DNA of 20,000 nt from an uncultured virus (IMG/VR IMGVR_UViG_3300043961_000090) (IMGVR_UViG_3300043961_000090), one strand, 5' to 3'. Counted from the first letter of the stretch, positions 1 to 19,644 are shown. The notes: generated by a model not told the origin, from the letters alone. Numbers and translations are program-made.

Positions 1-3000
1 TACCACGATGCTATCTGAAGAGTAAAATGACCATGAGAAAGATCAAAGGACGGCATAGAATTGATTTTCTTCAGTTCAGGAAATTCATTATGACAGAATT
101 TATTACGAATTTCAAACAATAAATCCCAGTCCCCTTGATTAATATATCCCTTTCTTTTCAACCAATTCAAATAGGCTTCATGCTGGACATTAGGACCTTT
201 TACAGTGCCTTCATTAAATAACTTGGTTTTATCTTCTGGGGAGATGACTGACAAAATACTCTTTTCCAATTCAAAAACCTTGCTGAATACTCTTTCCCGG
301 TACTGTTCATAATCCTCCATTTCTGCAACTAATTTATCAAAATCAATTTTCTCTTCTTTAAAATACGGGAGAAGATTTTGCATTCTTTCGTCATGAAGGA
401 ATCGAATAAAGAAGGAATAATCTTTTCTTTTCCTATGTGCCACAATAGTCCGATCATATAGACGTGCTTCCATATCTTCTTCCTCTTTAAGTGGATTTTT
501 TGCAGAATTTGGATCTATATCATTAGGAGAGATTGTAAATGTTGAAATTCCTGAGTCAGAAGTAGATTTATTCTTTTTCGTGTTCATCTCCAAGAATACA
601 TGCCGTATCATCATCAACAAAATCCGGTCTTCCGTACAATAATAGCGGATTTTCTTTTCTTTCTCAGCTACAGCCTTTTTGAAAATTACTTTTAGCTGTT
701 TTTCTGAGATTCTCTCCTTTTCTTTTTTGCATTGCTCAATAACATCATCGAGTATTGATTCATAATAATATTTTATGGGCCTATCTTCTGTTGGATCCAC
801 ATTCACGACACACTCGTAAGGCCTATCCTTGAATATCGTATAATATCGTTTTTTATGATAAAATGGTTGTAGGTCTTTCAGCCACATTCCAAGCAATCGA
901 GAATAGTTATAGGTCTTTTCACCATCAGAAATAGTTACTTTTTCTTTCAATCTAGTGATTAAAGCACTATCAAATAAATTAGTTGGCAGATCCGCAGGTT
1001 TAGGAACTTGTTTTGTAGAAGTAGAATTTTGAGTTTGTACCGATTTCAACCAATTGTCGAAATCATGGACTAATTTCAAATTATTATCTAATTCCGAATT
1101 ATCGTCTGCTTTAATCCATTTTTGATAAGTTAGGGGTACTCCTATTTCAGGCATACGAATCTCCGTTTCATTCTTTTTTTTCTTTTCATCCCATTTTGTG
1201 AAATAGAATGTCTTATGTAGCCAGCCCTTCTTTAATGATAAGTATTCTTTATAAAAATCCAAGGTTGAATTTGTCCTTTGACGATCCAAATCTGCAAGGA
1301 ATGGGTGTCCCTTATCCTTATCCAATAAGTTCAAATCTCGCTTGCATAACTCCCAAAAGAGTTGCTTCTTTTCATTATTTGCATAAAGAGCTAGGCACTC
1401 CTGTAATAGGTCATAATAAAATGAAGTAATTTTAGTCTTTACATCACGATCTATCACTAGTTTGATAATATCACGAGCTAATTCTGACGCCATCTCGCCA
1501 ACCTTTAGTTGTCTTCCCTTTTCTATATCTTTTATCCGCTTCTTACAGTCTGTAGCAGCTTCCTTAATGCGCTCTTTGAAAGAGTAATTATTTCCAGTAT
1601 CCTCAACATTTAGCCAATAGTCAATAATACGACTCGGAATTTGTCGGCAATCCAATCCTTCAGGTTTCAATATAGTATCAAGATGAAGTTTTCTTTGATG
1701 GAATTCTGCCTGATATTCGTCATAGTCTTTTTTAGTTCTGTAATTTAGAGACTTTTTAGAATCAGTTGATATTCTTTTTAATAAACTGTAACAGGGTAAC
1801 TGTTCCTTAATCTTATCTATCCATTTTCTGTTCAGTAAGCAATACTTGTTTTTATTCAAATAATTTTTAATTAGATTATAAGCGGATCCAGGCGAGAGCA
1901 ACTCCAGTAATACAACCTTTGGTAATTCTGATATGCTCAAAAAAGCCTGTGGATTTTCCTTGTTAAAGGATATCTCTTGATTACTAAAAGCTAATGCAAT
2001 TTTATTTTCTACAATATTATAATGAGGAGCATACTGAGTGAATTTTACTTCCGTACCTTTAAATAATTCTATGAAATCCTTTTCTTCAATGATTTTCTTC
2101 TGTACATCATCATTATAAGTTGATAATTTCCCAAAAGTTTTAACATCTTTGACAATGCTTCTATTCTTTTCCTCAGGCATTTGCCCGAGCACACGTTTAG
2201 AATATGACTTTGTTTCAACTTTACCTAAATGAATTTGAAAATCATATTTAAAATTTTCTGAAGCATCAAGGAAGTTCAAAGCAAATTCTGGGAATCTGTC
2301 CCGACTTCGTTTTAATGTTGAAATGTCTTTCAAATAAGATTCATAGTCCTTGTCATCATATTTCGCATTCAAGGTTGGTTTGAATTGCTCCTGGTCATTT
2401 TTACCTAGGGTATTATATAATTCCTTCGGGGCACGTTGCAGATAGTTCAATGCATCCATAAGTACAGCCTGTTGAGGATTTTGGCTGTTCAGTTTATTAT
2501 GAGGAAGTTTTACGCATAACACGGAAAAGGTCTCTCTTGTAGCCTGAAAATCCGGAGTTTCGGAATTTTTGAATCCACTGATCTTATTAAAGAAATGAAA
2601 AGCATTTTCTTTATCCAGAAATAAGCAACAGAAGAATACCAAGCCTATTGTCGTCACTTGGTTCGTCTCGTCTACAAATAATTCCGGCCCGATTTTCTTT
2701 CTTACATTATCGAAACATTTATCTGAAATCACATCTTGAAATCTTTTTTGGGCAAGTTTTACTGCCACTTCAAACAACTCTCTAAGTTGAAGTACTAACT
2801 CATTTTTAATATTTACTTTTCGTTGAGTGCCTGTATCTATGGAAAAATAATGAGTATATTCATTCCTAAAATCACACAGTTCTTTAAAGGCCATTTTTAG
2901 GAAATCAGCCAACTTCCCGATATCCGTACCAGTGGCATCATCATCCATTCCTATATTTCTTCTGAAATCACTGGAAAAAGCATTTGCCAATGGAAGATAA

Positions 3001-3242
3001 CGGCATAGATTCAGGTAGATTATTCCACCAGGATCAGTAAAAGAAAAAGATTCCGTTAAGAAGGTATTACCTATATTACTATCATCACCCAATTTTGGTT
3101 TATTAAATTTTCTGGACATCTCTTGAGAAATCATAAAGACATTATGTCTCGCAATGTTCAGATATGCTCCAAAATATTCCGGAGTAGTTTTGATTGTATA
3201 GGTTTTTGATATCCTATGAAGTGTGTTTTTGTTTTTTATCAT
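1..3242 (-). CDS. cas13b: Type VI-B CRISPR effector Cas13b (RNA-guided RNase), >1080 aa, 3' end beyond the left window edge
   Basis: Hand translation from ATG at 3242 (MIKNKNTLHRISKTYTIKTTPEYFGAYLNIARHNVF...) stays open to position 3. N-terminal HEPN motif RNEYTH is at 2850-2867 (R126) and C-terminal HEPN motif RNKFCHNEFP at 90-107 (R1046). Cas13b-type motifs include YFGAYLNIARHN, GLVFFCCLFLDK, RSRDRFPEFALNFLD, FQIHLGK, QYAPHYNIVENKIAL, AFLSISELP, KVGEMASELARDII, HPFL, LPTNLFD, QPFY and EKKIRYY..EDRILLMM. It lies next to a VI-B-type array. Confidence 0.96.
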   Translation of the reverse strand, partial: MIKNKNTLHRISKTYTIKTTPEYFGAYLNIARHNVFMISQEMSRKFNKPKLGDDSNIGNTFLTESFSFTDPGGIIYLNLCRYLPLANAFSSDFRRNIGMDDDATGTDIGKLADFLKMAFKELCDFRNEYTHYFSIDTGTQRKVNIKNELVLQLRELFEVAVKLAQKRFQDVISDKCFDNVRKKIGPELFVDETNQVTTIGLVFFCCLFLDKENAFHFFNKISGFKNSETPDFQATRETFSVLCVKLPHNKLNSQNPQQAVLMDALNYLQRAPKELYNTLGKNDQEQFKPTLNAKYDDKDYESYLKDISTLKRSRDRFPEFALNFLDASENFKYDFQIHLGKVETKSYSKRVLGQMPEEKNRSIVKDVKTFGKLSTYNDDVQKKIIEEKDFIELFKGTEVKFTQYAPHYNIVENKIALAFSNQEISFNKENPQAFLSISELPKVVLLELLSPGSAYNLIKNYLNKNKYCLLNRKWIDKIKEQLPCYSLLKRISTDSKKSLNYRTKKDYDEYQAEFHQRKLHLDTILKPEGLDCRQIPSRIIDYWLNVEDTGNNYSFKERIKEAATDCKKRIKDIEKGRQLKVGEMASELARDIIKLVIDRDVKTKITSFYYDLLQECLALYANNEKKQLFWELCKRDLNLLDKDKGHPFLADLDRQRTNSTLDFYKEYLSLKKGWLHKTFYFTKWDEKKKKNETEIRMPEIGVPLTYQKWIKADDNSELDNNLKLVHDFDNWLKSVQTQNSTSTKQVPKPADLPTNLFDSALITRLKEKVTISDGEKTYNYSRLLGMWLKDLQPFYHKKRYYTIFKDRPYECVVNVDPTEDRPIKYYYESILDDVIEQCKKEKERISEKQLKVIFKKAVAEKEKKIRYYCTEDRILLMMIRHVFLEMNTKKNKSTSDSGISTFTISPNDIDPNSAKNPLKEEEDMEARLYDRTIVAHRKRKDYSFFIRFLHDERMQNLLPYFKEEKIDFDKLVAEMEDYEQYRERVFSKVFELEKSILSVISPEDKTKLFNEGTVKGPNVQHEAYLNWLKRKGYINQGDWDLLFEIRNKFCHNEFPELKKINSMPSFDLSHGHFTLQIASW

Positions 3243-3277
3243 TTTGTATTGCTTTTTTAGATCAACTAAGTTATCAC

Positions 3278-3285: not shown

Positions 3286-3427
3286 CAAAAATCAAAACAA
3301 ATTACATTATGAATTTTAGATTTTCTGATTAGTTCCTAATAAAATATATTGCTCGGTTTTGGAGTAGACATATTGTCTTCTGAAAAACTGGCAATATATG
3401 TTTTAAGCTTCTGCAGATCATTGAACA

Positions 3428-4123
3428 GTTGTTTATACCCTACAAAATTAAGGCAGCTACAACTTCAGTACGTGTATGATTCATATAAAAGCGGTTGTTT
3501 ATACCCTACAAAATTAAGGCAGCTACAACAATGACAACACTTTTTCTCATAGTTCCACCGTTGTTTATACCCTACAAAATTAAGGCAGCTACAACGGAAT
3601 GACGACATAATCAATATGCCTTTCGGTTGTTTATACCCTACAAAATTAAGGCAGCTACAACACTTTAATTCTCAGGATTCCACGACACCATGTTGTTTAT
3701 ACCCTACAAAATTAAGGCAGCTACAACGATGGAACATACAACATCATCGTAGACAACGTTGTTTATACCCTACAAAATTAAGGCAGCTACAACTGATCTG
3801 CATGAGGAGAAACGAACTCCGGAGTTGTTTATACCCTACAAAATTAAGGCAGCTACAACACTCTCGTAACCATTATACTGGATCTACAGGTTGTTTATAC
3901 CCTACAAAATTAAGGCAGCTACAACAAATTCGTATCTGACCAGATGATTCATTTCGTTGTTTATACCCTACAAAATTAAGGCAGCTACAACAAAGAATAT
4001 TGCAACAATGCAAGTAATCATGTTGTTTATACCCTACAAAATTAAGGCAGCTACAACGCAATCAAAAGAATTGCAAGAGTTAGGGGTGTTGTTTATACCC
4101 TACAAAATTAAGGCAGCTACAAC
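3428..4123 (-). CRISPR. Type VI-B CRISPR array: 11 identical 36-nt repeats and 10 spacers of 30 nt
   Basis: The plus-strand repeat GTTGTTTATACCCTACAAAATTAAGGCAGCTACAAC starts at 3428, 3494, 3560, 3626, 3692, 3758, 3824, 3890, 3956, 4022 and 4088 (66-nt period). The minus-strand form GTTGTAGCTGCCTTAATTTTGTAGGGTATAAACAAC folds like a Cas13b direct repeat: terminal GTTGT/ACAAC stem, inner TGCCTTA/TAGGGTA stem and a U-rich loop. Orientation is inferred from similarity to known VI-B repeats and from the promoter at 4333-4364. Confidence 0.98.
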
Positions 4124-4364
4124 TTACATGTCGTATCTTCCACATTATAAGGGTATTATCTTCTATTTTAGCATGATAAAATGCTATTAAATTATTTTTC
4201 TGGCACTGCTCAACTCGATAATTTCTTTTCTAATCCTGATATTACGTCCTCAATATTTTTCTACTTTTACAGTACTCTGTCGGTTTAATTCTTAAATCTT
4301 TGCCCATCCGTCTCATTGATAAGAATTACCTGCAAATATAAGATAAACTAAGCTGATATCCAAA
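4124..4364 (-). promoter_or_regulatory. CRISPR leader with consensus Bacteroidetes promoter (-33 TTTG at 4361-4364, -7 TATATTTG at 4333-4340)
   Basis: AT-rich non-coding stretch. The minus strand has TTTG-N20-TATATTTG, a full match to the Bacteroidetes TTTG/TAnnTTTG consensus, pointing into the array. Confidence 0.75.
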
Positions 4365-4376
4365 TATTTAAAAGCT

Positions 4377-4733
4377 TTATTTAGTCAGTTGACCATTTCT
4401 TGTGTCAAACTCACTGTCATCTGGTAGTTCAAAGTATTCCTTATTTGTGGTATTGACAAAGCTGACACTCCTCTTGTCGCCATTCGAAAGAATATAGAAA
4501 TCAGAAATATTAAAATCAGCCTTCTTTAACATCTGTATATAAAATTTCCTGCGGCGTGGATCCTTGTCAACGGATTGCAGTTGTGCCACAACACTATTGT
4601 CATCCGTGTGCATCACCCCGTGGACGTGATTTTTTATCCAATGACAGAGTGTTACTATCGGTTTGGCATCGTCCGAAAGTGATACCCTTTCTACAGTCTT
4701 TTCCCTATAGATTATAATATATAGTCTTATCAA
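4377..4733 (-). CDS. Hypothetical protein, 118 aa (TTG start, uncertain)
   Basis: From the ORF track. It has protein-like composition, is co-directional with the array and cas13b, and stops just before the leader promoter. No family recognised and no transmembrane segment. Confidence 0.45.
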   Translation of the reverse strand: MIRLYIIIYREKTVERVSLSDDAKPIVTLCHWIKNHVHGVMHTDDNSVVAQLQSVDKDPRRRKFYIQMLKKADFNISDFYILSNGDKRSVSFVNTTNKEYFELPDDSEFDTRNGQLTK

Positions 4734-4832
4734 TTATCAACTGATAGATTCCACAATTATACTATCTTTTGTCCATAAATCCGAATTTATCCTAAATATA
4801 GGATACGAATGCACGGATAAATAGATTTTTAC

Positions 4833-4840: not shown

Positions 4841-5014
4841 CATGAGTTTTTCTACCCGAAAAACGCCAGAATGAAAAATACCTCATAAGCAGGAAATGAA
4901 GTGGCCGAGCACTCCGTCTATAGAAACAACTCATCATTCTTAAAATGGAAACTCCACGGTGCTGGCCTTCGGGTACAGACCGTGGGCTTTAATAAGAAAA
5001 AAGAACAGACAACT

Positions 5015-5515
5015 ATGGTTTACTATTTGATAATCGGCTTTTACCTTCTATTATATGCCTGGATGATTTTTCACGACCTTTTCCACAAGGAGCCGGTGGA
5101 AATTGCCTCCAGGACAGAAGAGGAAGAAATAGATATTTCTGAGGAAGCCAAGGCTTTTAAGCCCATAGAGGTCTCTAAGGAGATGTCAGCAGCTCAGCCT
5201 TTAAAAGGAGAAAATTCTGTGACTATGGAAAGAAAGGAGAAAGAGGAAGCAATGAAAGAAACTCCCTCTTTCGAATCTCAACCAATGGAGCAGGAAATCT
5301 CGGAGCAGGAATACCTTTCATCTGACGGTGAGGTTCCGGAGCAAACGACATCTCCTGAAGAAGGGCCTGTCCCGGAGATCCTCCCCTTCCAGAGCACTGA
5401 ATATTCCGGAGGTATCCTCATGAGCATCCTTCATAAACAGATTGAAGACCTTTCGCAAAAGGATCCGGAGATGGACGATGTGACTATCCATCTGATGAAA
5501 ATTGATCAGAAATAG
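5015..5515 (+). CDS. Membrane-anchored acidic hypothetical protein at the head of the tra region (166 aa)
   Basis: Likely start is ATG 5015 (MVYYLIIGFYLLLYAWMIFHDLF), not the GTG at 4901. It has an N-terminal TM helix followed by a Glu-rich low-complexity tail, a layout often seen upstream of Bacteroidales tra genes. Confidence 0.8.
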   Translation: MVYYLIIGFYLLLYAWMIFHDLFHKEPVEIASRTEEEEIDISEEAKAFKPIEVSKEMSAAQPLKGENSVTMERKEKEEAMKETPSFESQPMEQEISEQEYLSSDGEVPEQTTSPEEGPVPEILPFQSTEYSGGILMSILHKQIEDLSQKDPEMDDVTIHLMKIDQK

Positions 5516-5708: not shown

Positions 5709-6068
5709 ATGCTTCGAGTAAACTTCAAAGTATTTCTTTGCAAAGTAAAGAACTCTTGCAAGAAAATTTCAGTAAAGCGTGTCGCCACAGTGGCTTGTAT
5801 GGTACTCTTCTGTACCCTTGATATTTGTGCCCAAAGTCATGGAGCGGGAGGCTTCACAAAGGCCACTTCAGAGATTTCTTCGTATCAGACTCCTGTCAGT
5901 AATCTGATGAAGGCTATTGCCGCCGTCATCGTACTTGTCGGAGCGTTCAATGTCTATTTTAAAATGCAAAACGGAGACCAGGATGTCAAGAAGACCATCA
6001 TGCTGACCATCGGCGGTTGCGTAGCATTCATCGCCATGTCAGAAGCCCTTCCATTGTTCTTTAAATAA
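5709..6068 (+). CDS. traE: TraE-like pilin (DUF4134 family, VirB2-like)
   Basis: Long signal/leader followed by two hydrophobic helices (AIAAVIVLVGAFNVYFKMQNGDQDVKK..IGGCVAFIAMSEALPLFF). Positioned before traF/traG. Confidence 0.85.
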   Translation: MLRVNFKVFLCKVKNSCKKISVKRVATVACMVLFCTLDICAQSHGAGGFTKATSEISSYQTPVSNLMKAIAAVIVLVGAFNVYFKMQNGDQDVKKTIMLTIGGCVAFIAMSEALPLFFK

Positions 6069-6145
6069 GGACATGGGAATCATACATTCAGGAGGGGGAC
6101 TCTTACAAAGTATGTGTCCTTTCCTGTCTTTTGAAATCACGATCA

Positions 6146-6433
6146 ATGGAGATGAATTTTAATGGTTATCCTGTTTTCAAGGGACTTCAGAAGCCTTTGG
6201 AGTTCATGGGTATCCGCGGACGTTTTCTGACTTATGCCGCCATGGTCATCGGTATCTCTTTTATCGGCTATATCCTCTTTTCTATCCTCGTTGGAAAACT
6301 TGCTGGATTCCTTGCCATGACAGGCATTACTGCCATGGGCATCCTCGGTATTTTCATCAGACAGAAGAGCGGACTGCACAATAGAAAACGGAGCCGGGGC
6401 ATCTTCGTCTACCATCACCTTTTCTCACGATAG
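6146..6433 (+). CDS. traF: TraF-like protein (DUF4133 family, VirB3-like)
   Basis: YPVFKGLQKPLEFMGIRGRF motif, two TM helices and a basic tail, directly upstream of traG. Start uncertain (6131 TTG, 6146 or 6152 ATG). Confidence 0.85.
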   Translation: MEMNFNGYPVFKGLQKPLEFMGIRGRFLTYAAMVIGISFIGYILFSILVGKLAGFLAMTGITAMGILGIFIRQKSGLHNRKRSRGIFVYHHLFSR

Positions 6434-6437
6434 AACA

Positions 6438-9341
6438 ATGTTTGGAAAAAAGAAAAGCAAAATCGACGGTATCTTTGCCGAACTGGAAGACATCAAGGAC
6501 GATAAGGGCAAGCTTCTCAATACGGTATTGTTCTCCTGTAGGGGTGATGCTTCGGTACTTATCGAGATGGAGAACCCCGTCCAGCAGTATTCGACGGATC
6601 CAGCTCTCTATATAGGTTACATGGATGTGTTGGGTAATATCGTGGAGACCCTTGGAGAAGGCTTTGCCTTGCAAAAGCAGGACATTTTCTGTCGCCAGCG
6701 TTATCACCACCCTGTTACCTCGGATATGGAATACCTGACAAAGAGCTATTTCCGCTATTTCGAGGGCCGGCCCTATACGGAGATCCGTACCTTCCTGATC
6801 CTCACGATGGAGGGACAGAAGAGCACTTTTGTTAAATATGACGAGAAGGCCTGGAAAGCGTTTCATGTCAAGGTCAGCAAGGTTATTGACATCCTCAAGG
6901 AGCATGAAATCCGGTACCATAAGCTCAGCAAGGAAGAGGTCAACGAATACCTTCATCGTTATATGGCCTGTCATTTTCGAAAGGGATCTTTTGCCATGCA
7001 GAACTTCAAGGCCTCTGATGAAAGTCTGCGGATGGGCGCTGATGCGGTCCAGTCCTTCAGTCTGGTTGATGTCGACGAGATCGACCTTCCTTCCTTTATC
7101 AAGCCCTATCTGACCGTTCCGGTCAACGGGTATACCATCGCCACTGACCTCCTGGCATTCCTGGCAGAGATTCCCGATACCCACTGCGTCATCTATAATC
7201 AGGTTCTTCAGGTTCCCCAGCAGCGGAAGCTGCTGAGAAAACTGCAGGGCAAGGCCAAGCGTCACGGCAGCATGCCTGATCCCAGCAATAAGATTGCCAA
7301 GTCTGATATTGAGCAAGTCCTCAATGTCCTTGCCACGGAGAGCAAGATGCTCGTCAATACCAACTTCAATATCCTGGTCTGTTGTCCGCAGGAGAAGCTC
7401 ACCTCAGTCAGCTCATACATTGAGACCCGTCTTTATGAGTGCGGTATCCTGCCCTCCCGGTCAGCCTATAACCAGCTGGAACTTTTCCTGGACTGTTTCC
7501 CCGGTAATGCCTATTCCTTCAATCCCGACTATGACTTGTTCCTGACCATGAACGATGCCGCTCTCTGCCTTTTCTATAAGGAGCATCTGAAACACAGTGA
7601 GGACACCCCGCTGAAAACATGGTACACCGACCGTCAGGGACTGCCGGTGTGCATCGACATTACCGGCAAGGAAGGGTCAGTGAGATATACGGACAACAGT
7701 AATTTTTTCTGCATCGGGCCAAGTGGCAGCGGAAAGAGTTTCCATATCAATTCCGTTGTCCGCCAGTTGCTGGAACAGGATACCGATGCCGTCATGGTCG
7801 ATACGGGAGATTCATACGAGGGTATCTGTGCCTATTTCAAGGGGACTTATATCACTTACAGCAGAGAGCATCCCATCTCCATGAATCCTTTCAAGATCAC
7901 AAAGGAGGAGTATGACCAGAATTTCGGAGAGAAGAAGAACTTCCTGAAAAGTCTCATTTTCCTTATTTTCAAGGGGAACGAGGCACCGACAAAGATAGAA
8001 GACAAGATTATCAACCAGACCATCGTGGAATACTACCAGGAATACTTCCATCCCTTCAGGGAATATACCGAAAAGGAAAGAGAACAGCTCCGGGAGCGGC
8101 TGCTGCTGGAAGATAAAAAGAATGGGGCATACGAACACTATGAAGAAAAAATTGAAGAGAAGTACGCAGATCCCTATCGTATTCCGGAACTTGAAAAGGG
8201 AACTGCTGGAGGAGATGCTCCTCAAAGCAGGGATCATGCGGTGGAAGAAGAATACACCTCTCAGGAGAAGAAGCACCATGCCAAGGTCGTCCGTCAGGTA
8301 AACAAACTGCACGGTCTGGCTAATGATGATGCTGCTACCGAAGGAGAGAAGGCTGCTGCCAGCAGACAGCTCCTCCGCCTGATGCCGGAGCTTATTGAAG
8401 GCAGGTATATGATGCGGATAGAGAAAAAGATAGACCGCATGGAGGAACAACGACGGAAGATGCATGTCGGGCGGCTGAACTTCAACAGCTATTATGAATT
8501 TGCCCTGGAGCGTATCCCTCAGATCATGAAGGACAGCAGTATCAGTTTCGACATCAATGATTTTTCTGCTATACTGGAACAGTTTTATAAAGGCGGCGAG
8601 CTGGAATCTACGCTGAACAACGATGCTGATGCCAGCCTTTTCAGTGAACGGTTCATCGTTTTTGAGATTGATAAGATCAAGGATGATCCTGTCCTGTTCC
8701 CCATCGTCGTGCTCATCATCATGGATGTCTTCCTCCAGAAGATGCGTCTGAAAAAAGGACGCAAGGCGCTCATCATCGAAGAGGCCTGGAAAGCCATCTC
8801 CTCACCTACCATGGCCGAATATATCAAGTACCTCTATAAAACCGTAAGGAAGTTCCATGGCATCGCCGGTGTCGTCACCCAGGAGTTGAATGACGTGATT
8901 GACTCCCCTATCGTGAAGGAAGCGATCATCAATAATTCAGACATCAAGATCCTTCTCGACCAGAGCAAGTTCAGGGACAGGTATGACGAGATTTCTGCCA
9001 TCCTCGGTCTCACGCCCGTACAGCGGCAGCAGATCTTCACCATCAATAATCTCCGGAACCATGAGGGGAGAAACTATTTCAAGGAAGTTTGGATTGCCCG
9101 GGGGCAGTATTCTGATGTCTATGGCGTGGAGGAACCGCCTGAATGCTACTGGGCCTATACCACGGAACGGGCGGAAAAGGAAGCCCTCAAAATTTATGAA
9201 GCCCGGTATGGCGGTATCCAGACGGCCATCACCAGGATAGAAGAAGACCGCAGGAAGTCAAAGACAGACACCTATCTCGACTTTGCGCGGCAAGTGAATG
9301 AACACGGAAAGGTTATGAGCTTATGGAAGCAAAACGATTAG
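6438..9341 (+). CDS. traG: TraG conjugation ATPase (VirB4 family), 967 aa
   Basis: Walker A GPSGSGKS, Walker B IIEEAWK, and motifs LYKTVRKF..GVVTQ, IINNSD, YTTERAEK and an N-terminal LQKQDIF. Confidence 0.95.
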   Translation: MFGKKKSKIDGIFAELEDIKDDKGKLLNTVLFSCRGDASVLIEMENPVQQYSTDPALYIGYMDVLGNIVETLGEGFALQKQDIFCRQRYHHPVTSDMEYLTKSYFRYFEGRPYTEIRTFLILTMEGQKSTFVKYDEKAWKAFHVKVSKVIDILKEHEIRYHKLSKEEVNEYLHRYMACHFRKGSFAMQNFKASDESLRMGADAVQSFSLVDVDEIDLPSFIKPYLTVPVNGYTIATDLLAFLAEIPDTHCVIYNQVLQVPQQRKLLRKLQGKAKRHGSMPDPSNKIAKSDIEQVLNVLATESKMLVNTNFNILVCCPQEKLTSVSSYIETRLYECGILPSRSAYNQLELFLDCFPGNAYSFNPDYDLFLTMNDAALCLFYKEHLKHSEDTPLKTWYTDRQGLPVCIDITGKEGSVRYTDNSNFFCIGPSGSGKSFHINSVVRQLLEQDTDAVMVDTGDSYEGICAYFKGTYITYSREHPISMNPFKITKEEYDQNFGEKKNFLKSLIFLIFKGNEAPTKIEDKIINQTIVEYYQEYFHPFREYTEKEREQLRERLLLEDKKNGAYEHYEEKIEEKYADPYRIPELEKGTAGGDAPQSRDHAVEEEYTSQEKKHHAKVVRQVNKLHGLANDDAATEGEKAAASRQLLRLMPELIEGRYMMRIEKKIDRMEEQRRKMHVGRLNFNSYYEFALERIPQIMKDSSISFDINDFSAILEQFYKGGELESTLNNDADASLFSERFIVFEIDKIKDDPVLFPIVVLIIMDVFLQKMRLKKGRKALIIEEAWKAISSPTMAEYIKYLYKTVRKFHGIAGVVTQELNDVIDSPIVKEAIINNSDIKILLDQSKFRDRYDEISAILGLTPVQRQQIFTINNLRNHEGRNYFKEVWIARGQYSDVYGVEEPPECYWAYTTERAEKEALKIYEARYGGIQTAITRIEEDRRKSKTDTYLDFARQVNEHGKVMSLWKQND

Positions 9342-10057: not shown

Positions 10058-10060
10058 CGT

Positions 10061-10735: not shown

Positions 10736-10747
10736 AACAAGAAGAAT

Positions 10748-11422: not shown

Positions 11423-11432
11423 AGGATACACT

Positions 11433-12758: not shown

Positions 12759-12804
12759 TCCAAAGGAAGCCTCTTCAGAAAAGTAGATTTGAATTTTATA
12801 TTGT

Positions 12805-13404
12805 ATGATGTTGATACAAAGTTTGGAACAAAAGACAAGGCTTGCGCTGCTGACGGTCGTTCTTACCGTCTGCGGTTGTACGGTGATCTGTGCTTTCACC
12901 GTCTATTATGCCGCGAAGCTGATCACCGATGACCGCCGGCAGATCTACTGCATCGACGGTCAGATTCCCTTTCTGGCAGAACGCAGCAAGCAGGAAGCCA
13001 ACTTCGTGATGGAAGCCAAGGCGGACATCCAGCTCTTTCACCAGTATTTCTTCAACCTGCCACCGGATGATGATTATATCAAATGGACACTGGGCAAGGC
13101 GATGTATATGGCGGACGGCACGGCCATGAAACAGAAACAGGCCATGGAAGAGAACGGTTTCTATAGTGATATTGTCTCTTCCTCGGCTGTCTGTACCATT
13201 ATGTGTGACTCTATCCATCTCGATGAGCGTACGAGGAAGTTTACCTATTATGGCACGCAGTTGATCAAACGCCGCAGCCGGGATCTGAGACGCTCTATCA
13301 TCACCAGCGGTGAGCTGGTCAACGTACCCCGCACCCAGAACAATCCCCACGGACTGCTGATTACCCACTGGAGGACCCTGGAAGACAAGGACCTTGACCA
13401 TTAA
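12805..13404 (+). CDS. traK: TraK (VirB8-like)
   Basis: Single N-terminal TM, FHQYFFNLPPD, AMYMADGT and RTQNNPHGLLI motifs. Confidence 0.93.
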   Translation: MMLIQSLEQKTRLALLTVVLTVCGCTVICAFTVYYAAKLITDDRRQIYCIDGQIPFLAERSKQEANFVMEAKADIQLFHQYFFNLPPDDDYIKWTLGKAMYMADGTAMKQKQAMEENGFYSDIVSSSAVCTIMCDSIHLDERTRKFTYYGTQLIKRRSRDLRRSIITSGELVNVPRTQNNPHGLLITHWRTLEDKDLDH

Positions 13405-13422
13405 TCTCTAATCCATTCAAGT

Positions 13423-13926
13423 ATGAAGAAAAGATTCAGACAGGCAAAGACAGCCCGGGATGAAAAGATAGTCCGTCATGCCACTACACTCGTGGACAGA
13501 CTCGCGAAAAAGGTAAGACTCCGGGAGCGGATAGCCGTTGCCAACCGCCTGGCAAGGATGCATAAAAAGAGGACGTTCTGTTGGACGATAGGTCTGCTTT
13601 CCGTATCCCTCCTCATGGGTATCTTCCTGAGTATAGGAGATCTGACGAAGAGCGGTGATCAGGGCAGCAGTCCGGATGACCTTCAACTCAGTTCCATTGC
13701 CAATGTCCGTCCGATGTTCGACGGCCTGCACCAGATACAGAATGCCAGGGCCCTGCAGGGCGGACAGGTTGGCGCGATGATCTCCAGGGGTATCTGTCTC
13801 AAGGAGCAGCTGGATTCCCTGGTCCGGCTCCCCCATAATACCCACCGGGATTCTGCTGCCATTATCGTCAAGTACCATCAATTGGAATATCTGATCCAAT
13901 CCATAAAAACAAAAGAGAAACGATGA
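13423..13926 (+). CDS. TraL-like membrane protein
   Basis: Basic N-terminus, one TM helix and a LDSL....THRDS C-terminal segment. Lies between traK and traM and overlaps the traM start (ATGA). Confidence 0.7.
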   Translation: MKKRFRQAKTARDEKIVRHATTLVDRLAKKVRLRERIAVANRLARMHKKRTFCWTIGLLSVSLLMGIFLSIGDLTKSGDQGSSPDDLQLSSIANVRPMFDGLHQIQNARALQGGQVGAMISRGICLKEQLDSLVRLPHNTHRDSAAIIVKYHQLEYLIQSIKTKEKR

Positions 13927-15110
13927 ATAAGATCAATTTCAAACAGCCTAAATATATCCTCCCCCTGGTTACGCTCCTGCCAGTGCTCTTCCTCGCCCAC
14001 ACCATCATGAACTTTTCGGGAAAAGGAAGCGATACTCCTAAAAAGGGTGTCGCGACCGATTCCATCAGTATGTCCCTGCCGGCAGCGGAGAATGTGGGGA
14101 TTGGCGACAAGATGTCTGATATGAACCAGCGGATGAGTGAGGACGGAGCCTATACCGCTGTGGACGGCATAGGTGATGAGGATGAAAGCAAAGATTCCAC
14201 CACAAGCGGCTATAGTGAAAAGGAACTTGACAACATTGATGCGGCCAATGCTGACCGGAAACGCCAGCAGAAGCAGATGGAAGATATGGAACGCAGTCTT
14301 GCCGAAAGCCGGAAGCATATCAACTCCTATGCAGGAAGCGGTTCTTCGTCAGGCAGCAGCCAGCAGGAGGAGTATGGTGACTATGCCAGGGAGATAGCGG
14401 CTATCCAGCGCAGGAGCGTGGCCCGGCAGCGGGCTTATGAAAAATCCCTGGACGGGAATACAGGTGGGACTGTGGGCGGCAGCGATACTCCCGCTTCCCT
14501 TCCCGAAGGCAGGAGAAAGGGCAGGTCCAGGACTGCCAAGCCGGAGATTGCCATCCTGCATAAGGTGCAGAGCGCAAATGAAGACCAGTTCCATACGCTG
14601 GCCTCGCCATCCGCTGCCGATGAACCGCTGATCAGGGCGATGATCGACAAGACCACCAGGGCCCATGAAGGGACCCGTCTGCGTTTCAAGCTTCTCGATG
14701 ACGTCACCCTCAAGGGGACGGCTCTCCGCAAGGGTACCTACCTCTATGGTATCGTGACGGGCTTCGGGCAGCAGCGTGTCAAGGCCAGTATCACCAGTAT
14801 CCTCGTGAAGGACAAGTTTATCCGTGTCAGCCTTTCCGTCTATGACAACGACGGCATGGAAGGTTTCTATGTCCCCGAGTCAGCCTTCCGGGATATGATG
14901 AAGGAAGCCGGAGCTCAGGCCATGCAGAACAATGTCACCTTTGATAATGGCGGCGGATCAGAGCTCAGCGGCGAGTCCATTGCCCTTCAGACCCTGCAGA
15001 ATATGTACCAGAGCGCGTCGAATGCCGTGGCGAACAATATCCGTAAGAACAAGGCCCGTATCAAGTACAACACGATTGTCTATCTCATCAATACAGGAAA
15101 CAACGAATAA
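13923..15110 (+). CDS. traM: TraM (VirB10-like)
   Basis: KINFKQPKYILPL N-terminus with TM, coiled coil, and a C-terminal IRAMID...GTRLRFKLLDD...GFGQQRV...VYDNDGMEGFYVP domain. Confidence 0.93.
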   Translation: MNKINFKQPKYILPLVTLLPVLFLAHTIMNFSGKGSDTPKKGVATDSISMSLPAAENVGIGDKMSDMNQRMSEDGAYTAVDGIGDEDESKDSTTSGYSEKELDNIDAANADRKRQQKQMEDMERSLAESRKHINSYAGSGSSSGSSQQEEYGDYAREIAAIQRRSVARQRAYEKSLDGNTGGTVGGSDTPASLPEGRRKGRSRTAKPEIAILHKVQSANEDQFHTLASPSAADEPLIRAMIDKTTRAHEGTRLRFKLLDDVTLKGTALRKGTYLYGIVTGFGQQRVKASITSILVKDKFIRVSLSVYDNDGMEGFYVPESAFRDMMKEAGAQAMQNNVTFDNGGGSELSGESIALQTLQNMYQSASNAVANNIRKNKARIKYNTIVYLINTGNNE

Positions 15111-15128
15111 AGAATAACAAACAAAGAT

Positions 15129-16067
15129 ATGAAAAAGATTTTTGCATTGCTGGCTGCGGTGACCCTGTTTACACTCCCAGCCGGCGCACAGAAGAAGTAC
15201 ACTTCCATACTCCGGGACACCACCGTAAAGGCACGGTATATCCATACCCCTGTCTCTCAGGAGACTTCTGTCTTCCATGAGGATATCCGGCGGAGTAACA
15301 TCTATGTCAATGAGGAGGTCACCACGCATATCATCATGCCGGAGAATATCAAGCTCGTGGATATCTCTACGGCAAATATTGTCGGCAACCAGTGTGAGGA
15401 CAACATCGTCCGGATCAAACCGGCACACAGGATGTACGACAATGAACTGCTCGGCACCCTCACCCTTATCGGTGAGCGCCATCTGGCCCAGTTCAACGTC
15501 ATCTATACGCAGGGGCCGAACCGGGCAGATGCCATCTTCAAGGTCAGGCAGGAGGATATGAAACGCTATGACAATCCCGATGTGCTCATGCCCGAGGGAG
15601 AGATGGCCAGGTATGCCTGGGCGATCTATGGCAGTGGCCGGAAGTTTTATGGTCTCCACTCCTCCGCTAACGGGATCAAGGCTGTCATTAACAACATCTA
15701 TAGTATCAATGACTATTTCTTCATCGACTTCTCCCTCTATAACAAGACGAAAATCAAGTATGACATCAGTGAGATACGCGTCAAGCTCACCGATAAAAAA
15801 GAGACCAAGGCCACGAATACCCAGACGATCGAGCTGACTCCTGTCTATAGTCTGAACAAGGCGACCAGTTTTCAGAAAGGCTACCGCAATGTCCTGGTCC
15901 TGAACAAACTTACTTTCCCGGATGAAAAAGTCCTTATGCTGGAAATTTCAGAGAATCAGATTTCCGGAAGGGTCATCTGTATCCCCATCGAATATGAGGA
16001 CATCCTGCATGCCGACAGCTTCAGCGAGGAACTGATGAAATCGCTGGAAAAATCCTATAAACGGTAA
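15129..16067 (+). CDS. traN: TraN (DUF4138, VirB9-like)
   Basis: Signal peptide, TTHIIMPENIKLVDIS, NIVRIKP and KLTFPDEKVL.LEISENQISGR motifs. Confidence 0.92.
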   Translation: MKKIFALLAAVTLFTLPAGAQKKYTSILRDTTVKARYIHTPVSQETSVFHEDIRRSNIYVNEEVTTHIIMPENIKLVDISTANIVGNQCEDNIVRIKPAHRMYDNELLGTLTLIGERHLAQFNVIYTQGPNRADAIFKVRQEDMKRYDNPDVLMPEGEMARYAWAIYGSGRKFYGLHSSANGIKAVINNIYSINDYFFIDFSLYNKTKIKYDISEIRVKLTDKKETKATNTQTIELTPVYSLNKATSFQKGYRNVLVLNKLTFPDEKVLMLEISENQISGRVICIPIEYEDILHADSFSEELMKSLEKSYKR

Positions 16068-16071
16068 AATT

Positions 16072-16569
16072 ATGAAAAAGCCAGGTATGATGATCTGCGC
16101 CCTGATGCTGACGGCGTCAGTATGGGCGGGAGAAGGCGACCGGTATGTAAACATCAATTCCGGATTTCTTTTTAACTCCACGCTGAATGTCACTGCCGGC
16201 TATGAACGGCAACTGGAGTATGGCGATGCCGTGGAGCTCTTCGGCGAGGTTGGCGACCGCTGGCACAGAGACCCTGTCTGTGGCCGGGTATGCCGTAAAG
16301 TCTTCTGGAAAGACCACTATTGGGACGGCGGACTGCTCTATAAGAAGAGCGTCAGACGCTTCAAGAACTCCCGTCTGCGCCTGTGTGTCGGTCCCGTTTT
16401 CGGCTCCCACACCGGGGATTATTTCTTTGGCGTGGAGGGAGGACTGGAATATGACTGCATCTTCCCTTGTGGAATACAGTTTTCGGTCATCCAGAAGAAT
16501 GATGTGAGTTTCCTTCATGGTGACACGTTCCGCAACGGCGTGCTCATTGGTATCAAGGTTCCTTTTTAA
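16072..16569 (+). CDS. TraO-like small outer-membrane beta-barrel protein
   Basis: Signal peptide, alternating beta-strand pattern and C-terminal ...GVLIGIKVPF ending in Phe. Follows traN. Confidence 0.7.
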   Translation: MKKPGMMICALMLTASVWAGEGDRYVNINSGFLFNSTLNVTAGYERQLEYGDAVELFGEVGDRWHRDPVCGRVCRKVFWKDHYWDGGLLYKKSVRRFKNSRLRLCVGPVFGSHTGDYFFGVEGGLEYDCIFPCGIQFSVIQKNDVSFLHGDTFRNGVLIGIKVPF

Positions 16570-16579
16570 GAACAAGGTT

Positions 16580-17248
16580 ATGAAACAGGCAAAGAAAATC
16601 CTCTTTAAGATGAGCAGTATGATGATGCTGCCCCTGCTTGCGCTTGCTATTGGCATCCTGACTTCCTGTGAAGATCATGACGAAGCTTTTGACAGCAGCC
16701 TGCGTGTCGGCAATATTTATCTCTCTGATGACCGGGTGGTTAGCCCGGAAGGTTATGATCCTGAGACAGACGATGCTGCGGGTGTTATCTTTGCTGTTCA
16801 TGGGGATACAGCCCTTGTTGTGGCCCGGCAGGAAATGGGCAGTTATATCTATTCTGACTCGCTGGGCACCATCGGCAATGTCATCAATGATGCCGTGACG
16901 ATGTGCGGGCAGGAGAATACCGCGGCCATCCTTGCCTCGGATTTCGCCCGTCACTTCCCTGCCCTTGAAACTTTGGACGGCTATTCCTCCAAGATTACGG
17001 GATGGGTGCTTCCTTCTGCTGGAGATCTGAAGGCCTTGTCTACCTGTCTCGACCTGGTCAAACGTTCCATGACGCTCATCGGAGGTGATGGCTTCTCCCG
17101 GGGGCAGTATTTCAGTACATCCCAGGACGGGAGCTCCGGTGCCACCGGACAGGAATACTATTATACGGTAAGCCTGAACAGCGGTTATGTCACTTCAACG
17201 TATAAGAAAAGCAAGAGCCGGGTCCGCCTGATCCTCAATATCCGATAA
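16580..17248 (+). CDS. Lipoprotein with DUF1566/Lcl-like C-terminal domain
   Basis: Likely start ATG 16580. Lipobox LTSC followed by acidic residues; GWVLPSAGDL, YFSTSQ and a terminal RVRLI resemble DUF1566-type motifs. Confidence 0.7.
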   Translation: MKQAKKILFKMSSMMMLPLLALAIGILTSCEDHDEAFDSSLRVGNIYLSDDRVVSPEGYDPETDDAAGVIFAVHGDTALVVARQEMGSYIYSDSLGTIGNVINDAVTMCGQENTAAILASDFARHFPALETLDGYSSKITGWVLPSAGDLKALSTCLDLVKRSMTLIGGDGFSRGQYFSTSQDGSSGATGQEYYYTVSLNSGYVTSTYKKSKSRVRLILNIR

Positions 17249-17319
17249 CGTCAAGGCTGAGAAACATGAACCGAGCAGAATGCCTGAAGTTCTTCCCTAT
17301 CCATAAAAATTGATAAATT

Positions 17320-19644
17320 ATGCCAACAGAAGAGACCCGTGAGCAGCAACAGATGTACAACACCTTCCGCAGCTGCATCTATCTTTGCCTGATCATCGAA
17401 CTGGTGATGAACCTGCCGGTTACCACGGACAATAAACTTACCGCTTTTCTGCTGGAGCTGATTGCGAGGTTCAGGGTCTTCAACAGCGTAGTGAGCTGCA
17501 AGGTCATGGAACTGATCTGCATTGCCATCACCTGTATCGGTACAAGGGCAAGGAAAAGCCTGAGGTTCAATATAAAGACCATGGTGATTTATCCTGTCAT
17601 CATAGGCTTTGTGTTGATATTCCTCTGTATCTATCTGCATATCGGCAACTGGGGAGGCCGTTGGGCCGGGATTCCGGTCAACCGTTGTCTCTATGCCCTC
17701 TCGTCCATCCTCGGCACCATGCTCGTACACCAGGGGCTGGATGGCATCGCCCGCTATTATCAGATGAAAGTCGGTGATGACCGTTTCAACTTCGAGAATG
17801 AGAGTTTTGAACAAAGTGAGGAAAAGGTAGAGAACGGGTATTCCGTCAACATCCCCATGATCTATTATTTCAGGGGCAGGATGCACAAGGGATGGATCAA
17901 CATCATCAATCCTTTCCGGGCCACGATGGTCCTGGGTACTCCGGGATCGGGAAAGTCTTTTGGCATCATCGACCCTTTTATCCGCCAGCACAGTGCCAAG
18001 GGGTTTGCCATGATGGTGTATGACTATAAGTTTCCGACACTGGCCAGAAACCTGTTTTATCAGTACTGCAAGAACAAGCGTTATGGTCATCTGCCTGAAA
18101 ACTGTGATTTCAACATCGTCAATTTCACCGATGTTGAGTATTCCAACCGGGTAAATCCTATTCAGAGAAAATATATCCCGGACCTTGCTGCCGCTTCCGA
18201 GACTGCTGCCACGCTGATTGCTTCCTTAAATAAAGGAGGAGGCGACAAAAAAGGAGGCTCAGATGACTTCTTTACCCATTCGGCGGAGAACTTCCTGGCC
18301 AGCATCATCTATTTCTTCGTCAATTTCCATCCTACGGGTTTCCGAAAGGGAGAGAAACTGAGACACTATATCTCCTGCAACGGCAAGAAACTGCTGCTGG
18401 TCATCCGCAAGTGGTCAGACTATGAAGCCCTGGATGAAAAGGGCCATACGGTACTGGACTTTGTCGACAGCCAAAGCCGGAACCTCTCCACCGATACGGA
18501 TGGTATGTTTGTGGAGTTGAAAGGACTTGAATACACCTCGAAGGACGGACAGTCTGTCAGGATAGAGGATTCCTGGTACGAGAACAGCAAGGGAGAACGG
18601 GTTGAACCGGATTCCATCACTGGAGAATATTCCGATATGCCCCATGTCCTCAGTTTCCTGGGACACTCCTACGATGATGTTTTTGATATACTGATGCAGG
18701 ATGAAAAGATCATGTCCCTGATGGCGCCCTTCCAGAGTGCTTATCAGAACAAGGCCATGGACCAGTTGGAAGGAATGGTGGGTACGCTGCGGGTCAGTGC
18801 GGCAAGGCTTGTATCTCCTGAAGCTTACTGGGTGTTTACGGGTGATGACTTTGACCTGAAGATTTCAGACAGGGATCATCCCTCTTATCTGGTCATCGCC
18901 AATGATCCGGAAAAAGAGCAGGTGATCGGTTCCCTGAATGCACTGATTCTGAACCGTCTTGTTACCCGTGTCAACAGCAAGGGCAATCTTCCCGTAAGCA
19001 TCATCGTCGATGAGCTGCCCACCCTCTACTTCCATAAGATAGACCGTCTTATCGGCACCGCACGAAGCAATAAGGTTTCCGTCACTTTAGGTTTCCAGGA
19101 ACTTCCCCAACTAGAAGCCGACTACGGCAAGAACGGGATGCAGAAGATTATCACGACCTGCGGCAATATCTTTTTGGGAGCCGCACGTAACAAGGAAACA
19201 CTGGAATGGGCCCAGAATGATGTCTTCGGAAAAGTCAAGCAGACCAGCCGTTCCGTTACCATTAATGATCAGAAAGTATCTACTTCCCTCTCGGAAAAAA
19301 TGGATTATCTCGTGCCTGCCGCCAAGATAGCGGATATGGCCACCGGATGGCTGGCAGGACAGGCTGCCCGGGACTTCACCCCAACGGATATGAATGCCTT
19401 GAACAGCATTGATCTTGAAAACTCACCTGAATTCAAGACCACTAAATACTTCTGTAAAACCAATTTTGATATGGATAAAATCAAGAAAGAAGAAGGCTTT
19501 TACAAGGAATTGCCCAAGATGTATGCTTTTAAGGACAACCGGGAAAAGGAAACCATGCTTACCCGGAATTTTAAACGGGTAAATACAGAAGTGGACAATA
19601 TGATTGCAGGACTGCTGGGAGATAATTCTAATAATCTGAAGTAA
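17320..19644 (+). CDS. Type IV coupling protein (VirD4/TraD family, Bacteroidetes MobC/YWFCY-type), 774 aa
   Basis: N-terminal TM helices, DRFNFENESFEQ, Walker A GTPGSGKS, VYDYKFPTL, Walker B IIVDELPTL and TARSNKVSVTLGFQ. Confidence 0.93.
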   Translation: MPTEETREQQQMYNTFRSCIYLCLIIELVMNLPVTTDNKLTAFLLELIARFRVFNSVVSCKVMELICIAITCIGTRARKSLRFNIKTMVIYPVIIGFVLIFLCIYLHIGNWGGRWAGIPVNRCLYALSSILGTMLVHQGLDGIARYYQMKVGDDRFNFENESFEQSEEKVENGYSVNIPMIYYFRGRMHKGWINIINPFRATMVLGTPGSGKSFGIIDPFIRQHSAKGFAMMVYDYKFPTLARNLFYQYCKNKRYGHLPENCDFNIVNFTDVEYSNRVNPIQRKYIPDLAAASETAATLIASLNKGGGDKKGGSDDFFTHSAENFLASIIYFFVNFHPTGFRKGEKLRHYISCNGKKLLLVIRKWSDYEALDEKGHTVLDFVDSQSRNLSTDTDGMFVELKGLEYTSKDGQSVRIEDSWYENSKGERVEPDSITGEYSDMPHVLSFLGHSYDDVFDILMQDEKIMSLMAPFQSAYQNKAMDQLEGMVGTLRVSAARLVSPEAYWVFTGDDFDLKISDRDHPSYLVIANDPEKEQVIGSLNALILNRLVTRVNSKGNLPVSIIVDELPTLYFHKIDRLIGTARSNKVSVTLGFQELPQLEADYGKNGMQKIITTCGNIFLGAARNKETLEWAQNDVFGKVKQTSRSVTINDQKVSTSLSEKMDYLVPAAKIADMATGWLAGQAARDFTPTDMNALNSIDLENSPEFKTTKYFCKTNFDMDKIKKEEGFYKELPKMYAFKDNREKETMLTRNFKRVNTEVDNMIAGLLGDNSNNLK

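What the first reader, a model, noticed from the sequence alone, without database searches (positions are those of the whole stretch)
1..19644. RNA-targeting CRISPR-Cas13b system back-to-back with a Bacteroidales conjugation operon
Seen: an apparently intact cas13b and an 11-repeat array lie under 1 kb from the start of a long tra operon, transcribed divergently from it. Known: CRISPR systems on conjugative elements are mostly described for types IV and I, and Cas13 confers phage defence through target-activated collateral RNA cleavage (dormancy/abortive infection). Inference: this is a self-transmissible Cas13b defence module. It could protect hosts from phage, act against competing elements, or help maintain the element.
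Basis: partly seen in the sequence, partly recalled or inferred. Interest (0 to 1): 0.85.

Follow-up and report, generated by a model that had tools for sequence, protein, structure and literature searches.

The report
Cas13b defence cassette inside Prevotella ICE
An intact RNA-targeting CRISPR-Cas13b system sits as one swappable defence cassette between the integrase end and the conjugation genes of a mobile element inserted next to the mnmE gene of digester Prevotella, so it probably travels with that element, although self-transfer is not shown.

Summary
The window holds cas13b (1080 of 1093 codons, both HEPN motifs), 11 identical 36-nt repeats with 10 spacers, and a divergent, intact Bacteroidota-type tra operon ending in a MobC coupling protein.

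The decisive question was whether cas13b lies inside the element. A metagenome contig 99.9% identical over window 1-3650 continues leftwards through hipBA, two excisionase-like genes and a tyrosine integrase to chromosomal mnmE. The nearest genome (G001) has the same layout, but an AbiL pair fills the cas13b slot. Identity to G001 jumps from about 78% in mnmE to 100% at the mnmE stop codon. The window keeps a 273-bp AbiLi remnant at 4413-4685.

In other metagenomes the identical cas13b module is joined to a tra backbone about 3-4% different, with the break at 4654-4685. So cas13b is an exchangeable cassette in a cargo hotspot.

- **Not shown:** no relaxase, oriT or right end was found for the window. 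G001 offers only a candidate attR beside its single relaxase, on another contig.
- **Rival:** a related integrase at mnmE in G023 leads a defence island without tra genes, so a separate island lying next to a tra element remains possible.

The parts
3..3242 (-). cas13b, residues 1-1080 of 1093; both HEPN R-N-x3-H motifs present
3428..4123 (-). CRISPR array: 11 identical 36-nt repeats and ten 30-nt spacers; read on the minus strand, upstream of cas13b
4124..4412 (-). AT-rich presumed leader. Positions 4294-4391 are 93% identical to the 5' region of an AAA_14/DUF4143 ATPase gene in G155, which looks like a recombination scar
4413..4685 (-). Internal fragment of an AbiLi (AAA_21 ATPase) gene. It is the remnant of the AbiL cassette that fills this slot intact in G001. 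The 118-aa ORF at 4377-4733 is this fragment
4683..4770 (.). Last 87 bp of a roughly 340-bp scaffold segment that lies upstream of AbiLi in G001. 823 bp of G001 sequence is missing here. The break in divergence between the cas13b module and the tra backbone lies at 4654-4685
4901..5515 (+). First ORF on the tra strand (204 aa from GTG; an internal ATG sits before a hydrophobic stretch followed by an acidic tail). No family hit
5709..17248 (+). Bacteroidota-type T4SS operon: TraE-like (DUF4134), TraF-like (DUF4133, below the Pfam cut-off), TraG/VirB4, two unknown ORFs, DUF5045, TraJ-like (below the NCBIfam cut-off), TraK, an unknown ORF, TraM, TraN, two unknown ORFs
17320..19644 (+). MobC-type type IV coupling protein (YWFCY, T4SS-DNA_transf and TraG-D_C domains)
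19645..20000 (.). AT-rich flank (29% GC) specific to the window's variant. G001, G182 and runs X16, X19 and X20 continue differently from 19645-19648 onward

Best explanation
The window shows the cargo hotspot and conjugation module of an integrative and conjugative element (ICE) of Prevotella that inserts at the 3' end of mnmE. The inferred order is: mnmE | HTH_17 gene, tyrosine integrase, 275-aa gene, two excisionase-like genes | 522-bp repeat | hipBA | 522-bp repeat | cas13b and CRISPR array | AbiLi remnant | tra operon, MobC | further cargo.

The type VI-B locus is one of several interchangeable defence cassettes. It moves between related element backbones by homologous recombination in the conserved scaffold on either side.

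Inferred mechanism:
- The array and cas13b are transcribed leftwards. Cas13b processes the crRNAs. A matching transcript activates the two HEPN sites, and cis and collateral RNA cleavage arrests the infected cell.
- With no cas1 or cas2 in the locus, the element delivers a fixed set of 10 spacers. New spacers would need an adaptation module supplied in trans.
- hipBA next door may help to retain the element.

Shown here: the gene content, the order, the left junction, the cassette replacement and the mosaic divergence. Inferred: that integrase and tra belong to one element, that the element transfers itself, and all of the activity.
For: 1. L040 equals window 1-3650 at 99.9% and continues through hipB/hipA, HTH_17 x2, a 275-aa gene, a tyrosine integrase (Arm-DNA-bind_5, SAM_5 and the catalytic domain) and an HTH_17 309-aa gene to MnmE and a PNP_UDP phosphorylase-family gene.
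2. G001 is collinear with this. Its identity to the locus is 64-87% per 100 bp in mnmE and 100% from about position -8240 for at least 4.4 kb. The window locus, G001 and G182 are identical from the last 14 nt of mnmE onward, whereas G155, which has no integrase there, differs.
3. The same slot holds an intact AbiLi/AbiLii pair in G001, with conserved sequence on both sides. The window keeps a 273-bp AbiLi fragment. The AbiL pair is a discrete 1,944-bp unit, 96.5% identical at a chromosomal site in G001's relative G155.
4. In runs X16 and X19, cas13b to position 4526 shows 0-2 differences. One contig spanning 4615-5185 is identical up to 4684 and then shows 14 differences, at the same depth as cas13b. 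The alternative right flank in those runs is the G001/G182 type.
5. G001 (99% complete) has one VirB4, one TraN and one PF03432 relaxase. A 15-16-nt copy of the mnmE-end core lies 5 kb from that relaxase, with element-like genes on its 5' side and a hairpin plus other DNA on its 3' side.
6. No copy of the core (up to 4 mismatches in 21 nt) lies near 4600-4800 or 19648.
7. In relatives, an integrase of this family lies upstream of tra on the same strand: G086 at 8 kb, G212 at 9 kb, G274, G190 and G368 at about 20 kb, G163 at 36 kb. G267 runs integrase, relaxase, ParA, tra, T4CP, then defence cargo.
8. The GC step (34% to 50%) is a property of the modules. The tra blocks are about 50% GC in G001 and G267, against flanks of about 40%.
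Against: - No relaxase, ParA or oriT lies between the integrase and tra, where G267 has them, nor in the window.
- G001's relaxase is on another contig, and no contig overlap links it to the tra contig.
- The candidate attR could not be confirmed by an empty site, and G182 lacks that DNA.
- The integrase module (100%) and tra (92-100% per 300 bp, mostly 94-98%) differ in divergence.
- G023's homologous integrase (57-73% identical by segment, tblastx) at mnmE leads a defence island with no tra genes in 37 kb.
- A 340-bp segment ending at window 4770 also abuts a chromosomal PGM gene elsewhere in G001, so 4770 could be an element end.
- The left flank is from another sample's contig. The run whose contig matches the window exactly extends only 219 bp further left.
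Confidence: 0.62

Rival explanations
1. Two elements lie side by side. One is an integrase-led, non-conjugative defence island (mnmE junction to about 4770) that carries hipBA and cas13b. The other is a separate tra element starting at about 4771. On this reading cas13b is not part of the conjugative element and would move only by mobilisation, co-transfer or recombination.
For: - G023 has the same kind of integrase module at mnmE, followed by at least 37 kb of defence genes and no tra.
- Divergence differs sharply on the two sides of 4654-4685.
- The 340-bp segment ending at 4770 abuts chromosomal DNA at another G001 locus.
- No relaxase lies on the integrase side.
Against: - No copy of the att core lies near 4600-4800, as tandem site-specific insertion would leave.
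- No second integrase or chromosomal DNA separates the two parts.
- The tra block has no integrase of its own in 15 kb of the window, nor in the 15 kb beyond MobC in G001.
- The two parts are linked in every case where context is visible: the window/X1, X16/X19 and G001.
- The break in divergence is what cassette exchange by flanking homology predicts.
Confidence: 0.25
2. The region is a decaying, immobile remnant of an ICE that has lost its relaxase and ParA module. On this reading cas13b is in effect a chromosomal defence-island gene inherited vertically.
For: - The relaxase/ParA module that relatives carry between the integrase and TraE is missing.
- Gene fragments and an 823-bp deletion lie at 4294-4685.
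Against: - The integrase module is 100% identical between hosts with about 78% mnmE identity.
- tra is 96% identical between the same hosts.
- All tra ORFs are open.
- The exact integrase protein is seen on 53 contigs and the exact TraG on 12.
- The stretch is held by runs of 17 studies.
Confidence: 0.08

Closest known systems
Type VI-B CRISPR-Cas (Cas13b) of Bacteroidota, as described by Smargon et al. 2017 (recalled; cited in passages of PMC5524643)
   Same: Single large effector with two HEPN motifs, a 36-nt repeat, 30-nt spacers, and no cas1 or cas2 in the locus.
   Different: No csx27 or csx28 was found next to it, as in Flavobacterium columnare (PMC5524643, passages read). Here the locus sits in a mobile-element cargo slot. 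The closest named relative found is only 40% identical, while 13 unnamed metagenomic proteins are 75-100% identical.
CTnDOT-type conjugative transposons / ICEs of Bacteroidales (recalled), and the related Prevotella element in G267
   Same: TraE-TraN gene set, MobC-type coupling protein, a tyrosine integrase with an arm-binding domain at one end, HTH_17 excisionase-like genes, and defence cargo.
   Different: The coupling protein lies at the end of the tra operon. The relaxase/ParA module between the integrase and TraE is replaced by defence cassettes. The insertion site is the mnmE 3' end.
ICE-borne CRISPR-Cas, for example the Campylobacter ICE with CRISPR-Cas9 (PMC8743540, listing and abstract only)
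   Same: A CRISPR-Cas system carried as cargo of an integrative conjugative element.
   Different: That system targets DNA (type II) and its spacers match competing plasmids. This one targets RNA and no spacer target was found.
Defence cargo islands of Porphyromonas gingivalis ICEs (bioRxiv 10.64898/2026.08.04.741601, passages read) and ICE cargo hotspots generally (SXT/R391, recalled)
   Same: Variable defence genes sit at fixed positions in a conserved backbone.
   Different: In the passages read, that study reports defence and anti-defence cargo but does not mention Cas13 (0 occurrences of 'Cas13' or 'type VI').

Membership tests
Type VI-B CRISPR-Cas | Effector matches the Cas13b family model over its full length | tested here: met
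   NF038190, 662.7 bits against a cut-off of 150, residues 19-1063; PADLOC Cas13b at 2.5e-172
Type VI-B CRISPR-Cas | Two HEPN R-x4-H catalytic motifs, one near each end | tested here: met
   R126..H131 and R1046..H1051 are invariant in 13 of 13 aligned clade members
Type VI-B CRISPR-Cas | Adjacent array with 36-nt repeats (GTTG...CAAC ends, hairpin) and spacers of about 30 nt (the expected form is recalled) | tested here: met
   11 exact repeats and 10 spacers of 30 nt; minus-strand hairpin at -9.7 kcal/mol
Type VI-B CRISPR-Cas | Accessory csx27 (B1) or csx28 (B2) | tested here: not met
   No such ORF or family hit within the window or in the 10 kb to the left. The subtype therefore cannot be assigned; some VI-B loci lack both (PMC5524643, passages)
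Type VI-B CRISPR-Cas | crRNA-guided RNase activity and phage defence | not testable with these tools
   No expression or activity data. No protospacer found
Integrative and conjugative element (Bacteroidota type) | Type IV secretion (tra) genes and a coupling protein | tested here: met
   TraG, TraK, TraM and TraN score above their curated cut-offs. TraJ and MobC score below cut-off but are clearly related. All ORFs are open
Integrative and conjugative element (Bacteroidota type) | Integrase and excisionase at an end that abuts host DNA | tested here: met
   Seen in L040, which is 99.9% identical over window 1-3650. Identity to G001 jumps at the mnmE stop codon. Not seen in the window's own assembly
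Integrative and conjugative element (Bacteroidota type) | Relaxase and oriT | tested here: inconclusive
   None in the window or the left flank. G001's only PF03432 relaxase is on an unlinked contig, C44
Integrative and conjugative element (Bacteroidota type) | Two att ends with a shared core that enclose the integrase, the cargo and tra | tested here: inconclusive
   The left end is placed at the mnmE 3' end. A 15-16-nt copy of the core occurs on G001:C44 with the right geometry, but no empty site was found, and the window's right end was not seen
Integrative and conjugative element (Bacteroidota type) | Excision and conjugative transfer | not testable with these tools
   The contig-level data show no circular joint
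AbiL (AbiLi/AbiLii) abortive infection system | Intact AbiLi ATPase and AbiLii (RloB-like) pair | tested here: not met
   The window holds only a 273-bp internal AbiLi fragment at 4413-4685. The intact pair is in G001 and G155

The most novel reading that the evidence does not exclude
The 522-bp, highly structured repeats that follow each cassette (hipBA, cas13b; the 420-aa cassette and AbiL in G001) form a dedicated cassette-exchange scaffold of this ICE. This would be an integron-like shuffling system that works through repeated structured spacers rather than attC sites. The ICE would use the pre-loaded, RNA-targeting Cas13b to shut down recipient cells that express transcripts of rival elements or phages, so that a dormancy-inducing CRISPR system acts as a weapon of the element rather than of the host.
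Probability: 0.1. Interest if true: 0.75.

Novelty: new member of a known kind. Interest (0 to 1): 0.45.

Why it matters
Cas13 systems are usually discussed as chromosomal, host-owned defences. This locus is physically embedded in a horizontally spreading integrative element with a full T4SS gene set. It is interchangeable with an abortive-infection system at the same slot and was detected in digester, sludge and fermentation metagenomes of 17 studies.

If the element transfers, recipients gain ready-made RNA-guided immunity without an adaptation module. A collateral-RNase system would then be under selection at the level of the element. The locus also gives a natural, closely matched pair (cas13b against AbiL in the same backbone) for testing how defence cargo is exchanged between ICEs.

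Four literature searches turned up no report of an ICE-borne type VI system. ICE-borne type II systems and ICE defence cargo are already in print.

Tried and rejected
- Megablast of the whole window against plasmids found nothing.
- A single-protein scan of genome contigs with Cas13b found nothing. The alignment scan gave only a 31% relative in a Prolixibacteraceae MAG.
- DNA of window 1-4400 in 201 genus genomes gave only short or weak matches, in 6 genomes.
- Spacers: the array against phages and plasmids gave best E-values of 9 and 0.2, on unrelated genes. Against 711 kb of fetched loci no match exceeded 16 nt.
- The idea that one composite element runs from mnmE to the PGM gene was rejected. 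The two genes are on different contigs in 5 of 5 genomes, including the 3-contig G019.
- G155 as an empty site was rejected. There hipBA is followed by an IS transposase and the contig ends.
- An empty attB for the candidate attR was not found. Only the adjacent IS-like part recurs (13 of 401 genomes).
- G182 holds no DNA like G001:C44.
- The 522-bp repeat was found only in G001 among 401 genus genomes, so it is not a widespread scaffold.
- Rfam gave no match at gathering score in the window or L040. Only chance-level hits appeared at E up to 1 in the repeat.
- The 78-aa ORF in the repeat, the 275-aa, 204-aa and 420-aa proteins and the 302-aa protein of G001 have no Pfam or PADLOC family.
- Contig-end overlaps in G001 link only C11 to C10.
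- No structure prediction or complex prediction was run.
Full report
**What is in the window**

The ORF at 3..3242 on the minus strand runs off the left edge. It is a Cas13b: NCBIfam NF038190 scores 662.7 bits against a cut-off of 150, and PADLOC Cas13b gives 2.5e-172. A 100% identical database protein has 1093 residues, so 13 residues are off the window. In an alignment of the 13 closest relatives (76-100% identical), both HEPN motifs are invariant: R126-N-x3-H131 and R1046-N-x3-H1051.

Eleven exact 36-nt repeats with ten 30-nt spacers occupy 3428-4123. The repeat forms a much better hairpin on the minus strand (-9.7 against -3.6 kcal/mol). The array is therefore read towards cas13b, with an AT-rich leader at 4124-4412. 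There are no cas1, cas2, csx27 or csx28 genes.

On the plus strand, an unbroken operon runs from 4901 or 5709 to 19644. It encodes:
- TraE-like and TraF-like proteins
- TraG/VirB4
- TraJ-like, TraK, TraM and TraN
- several unknown proteins
- a MobC-type coupling protein

GC content is 34% over 1-4412 and 50% over 4413-19648.

**What lies beyond the left edge**

The window's assembly is not held. A metagenome contig (L040) found with the Cas13b alignment matches window 1-3650 at 99.9% and starts inside the array. Past the cas13b stop codon it encodes, in order:
- a HipB-like and a HipA-like protein
- two HTH_17 excisionase-like proteins
- a 275-aa protein with no family
- a 385-aa tyrosine integrase (arm-binding, SAM-like and catalytic domains)
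- a 309-aa HTH_17 protein
- MnmE and a PNP_UDP phosphorylase-family gene, that is, chromosome

Members of the MnmE and TraG 90% clusters are named Prevotella sp..

**Comparison with the nearest genome**

G001 holds window 4683-19648 at 96% and 4413-4685 at 94%, but no cas13b or array. In that place it has a 418-aa AAA_21 ATPase and a 205-aa RloB-like protein, which PADLOC calls AbiLi and AbiLii. The window's 118-aa ORF at 4377-4733 is an internal fragment of that ATPase gene. 823 bp of G001 sequence, covering the gene's 5' part and its upstream region, is missing at window 4683-4685.

On the other side, G001 sequence resumes about 90 bp past the cas13b stop. G001 also carries the same integrase module next to its own mnmE.

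Identity between the two loci is 64-87% per 100 bp in mnmE and 100% from about 30 bp past the mnmE stop for the next 4.4 kb. The window locus, G001 and G182 are identical from the last 14 nt of mnmE onward. G155, which has no integrase there, is not. This places the left junction of a horizontally acquired element at the mnmE 3' end. G003 and G023 also have an integrase of this family beside mnmE.

**A cassette slot**

The AbiL pair is a discrete 1,944-bp unit, 96.5% identical between G001 and a purely chromosomal site in G155. Window 4294-4391 is 93% identical to the 5' region of an AAA_14/DUF4143 gene of G155. So 4124-4770 is a patchwork of recombination scars.

hipBA is bracketed by two 522-bp direct repeats (94.4% identical). 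One repeat follows the hipA stop codon and the other follows the cas13b stop codon. In G001 the same repeat follows RloB and an unknown 420-aa gene.

**Mosaic history**

Twenty runs from 17 studies hold window 1-10000, all from sludge, digester or fermentation metagenomes.
- In X1, a 21.5-kb contig equals the window exactly.
- In X16 and X19, cas13b to position 4526 shows 0-2 differences.
- One X19 contig spanning 4615-5185 is identical up to 4684 and then shows 14 differences. Its depth (162x) is like that of cas13b (169x).
- The tra contigs of those runs differ from the window by about 3-4%.
- Their flank after MobC is the G001/G182 type.

So one cas13b module is joined, at the same junction, to two tra backbones. 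Exchange by recombination in the first homologous DNA beside a non-homologous cassette predicts exactly this pattern.

**Is tra part of the same element?**

For:
- No att-core copy lies near 4600-4800 or at 19648.
- No second integrase lies in the 15 kb of tra, nor in the 15 kb beyond MobC in G001.
- G001 has a single VirB4, a single TraN and a single relaxase.
- A 15-16-nt copy of the mnmE-end core sits 5 kb from that relaxase, on a contig that also carries ParA, HigBA, McrBC and Rep3. Element-like genes lie on its 5' side and a hairpin on its 3' side.
- In six genomes an integrase of this family lies 8-36 kb upstream of tra on the same strand, while in others on the truncated lists the two are far apart or on different contigs.
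- G267 has the order integrase, relaxase, ParA, tra, T4CP, cargo.

Against:
- The relaxase contig is not linked to the tra contig.
- No empty site confirms the attR.
- G023's island at mnmE has no tra genes in 37 kb.
- A 340-bp segment ending at window 4770 also abuts a chromosomal PGM gene in G001. mnmE and PGM are not neighbours in 5 of 5 genomes.

**Function**

No spacer matched phage or plasmid records or the fetched loci. The mechanism given is that established for Cas13b; it is recalled, and partly supported by passages of PMC5524643. It was not tested here.

**Literature**

Searches found no report of a type VI system on an ICE. They did find an ICE-borne Cas9 (PMC8743540, listing and abstract only) and defence cargo in P. 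gingivalis ICEs (preprint passages; no mention of Cas13).

**Verdict**

cas13b is very likely inside a mobile integrative element (about 0.85). It is probably in the same ICE as the tra operon (about 0.62). Self-transfer is unproven.

Noticed in passing
L040:6624-7144 and L040:3782-4303 (left of the window, just past the hipA and cas13b stop codons): Two 522-bp direct repeats, 94.4% identical, bracket hipBA. Their GC-rich core, including a dubious 78-aa ORF, is 100% identical between the two copies. It folds far better than shuffles on both strands (z = -8.2 and -8.0) and matches no Rfam family. It could be a terminator or insulator block, a recombination scaffold or an unknown RNA. Found only in G001 among 401 genus genomes.
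   Followed up: partly
G155:C2 (L058:7294-9237) compared with G001:C52: The AbiLi/AbiLii pair is a sharply bounded 1,944-bp unit, 96.5% identical between an ICE slot and a chromosomal site lying between a metallo-beta-lactamase-fold gene and a GH3 gene. The HigBA pair of G001:C44 likewise recurs at 91% in G155. Small defence and toxin-antitoxin cassettes appear to move as units.
   Followed up: partly
G023:C9 (L075:2891 to the end of L076): A related integrase module at mnmE leads an island of at least 37 kb. It holds a DUF5906/VapE-like protein, a 784-aa adenosine-deaminase-domain protein next to a 946-aa protein (RADAR-like pairing, recalled), ResIII and SNF2 helicases, a PLD protein and a GmrSD fragment. 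No tra genes.
   Followed up: partly
G001:C67:15409-15744 (L080) and window 4704-4770: A roughly 340-bp segment, which in G001:C52 lies upstream of AbiLi and ends at window 4770, recurs next to a chromosomal phosphoglucomutase gene, again just upstream of a leftward-reading gene. Its role (element end or mobile promoter piece) is unexplained.
   Followed up: partly
G155:C17 (L054:8109-12518): In G155, hipBA (82% identical to the locus) lies 185 bp after mnmE with no integrase module, followed by a DDE transposase and the contig end. This may be a remnant of an island or an independent capture of the cassette.
   Followed up: partly
window 19645-20000; G001:C52:1-14950 (L011): The DNA after MobC is a second variable region. 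The window has an AT-rich stretch. G001 has a 302-aa unknown gene, an AAA_14/DUF4143 ATPase, an ISL3 transposase, an HATPase protein, a polyvalent-protein kinase and an OLD-family ATPase plus UvrD helicase pair (Gabija-like).
   Followed up: partly
window 6500-19500; L034; L012: The tra block is about 50% GC in hosts whose flanks are about 40% GC (window, G001, G267). The module keeps its own composition across hosts.
   Followed up: no
table: Twelve of the 13 closest Cas13b relatives (P0001-P0013) sit on contigs of only 3.5-4.8 kb; the other is on a 14.4-kb contig. This suggests the gene is generally flanked by repeats on both sides that break assemblies.
   Followed up: no
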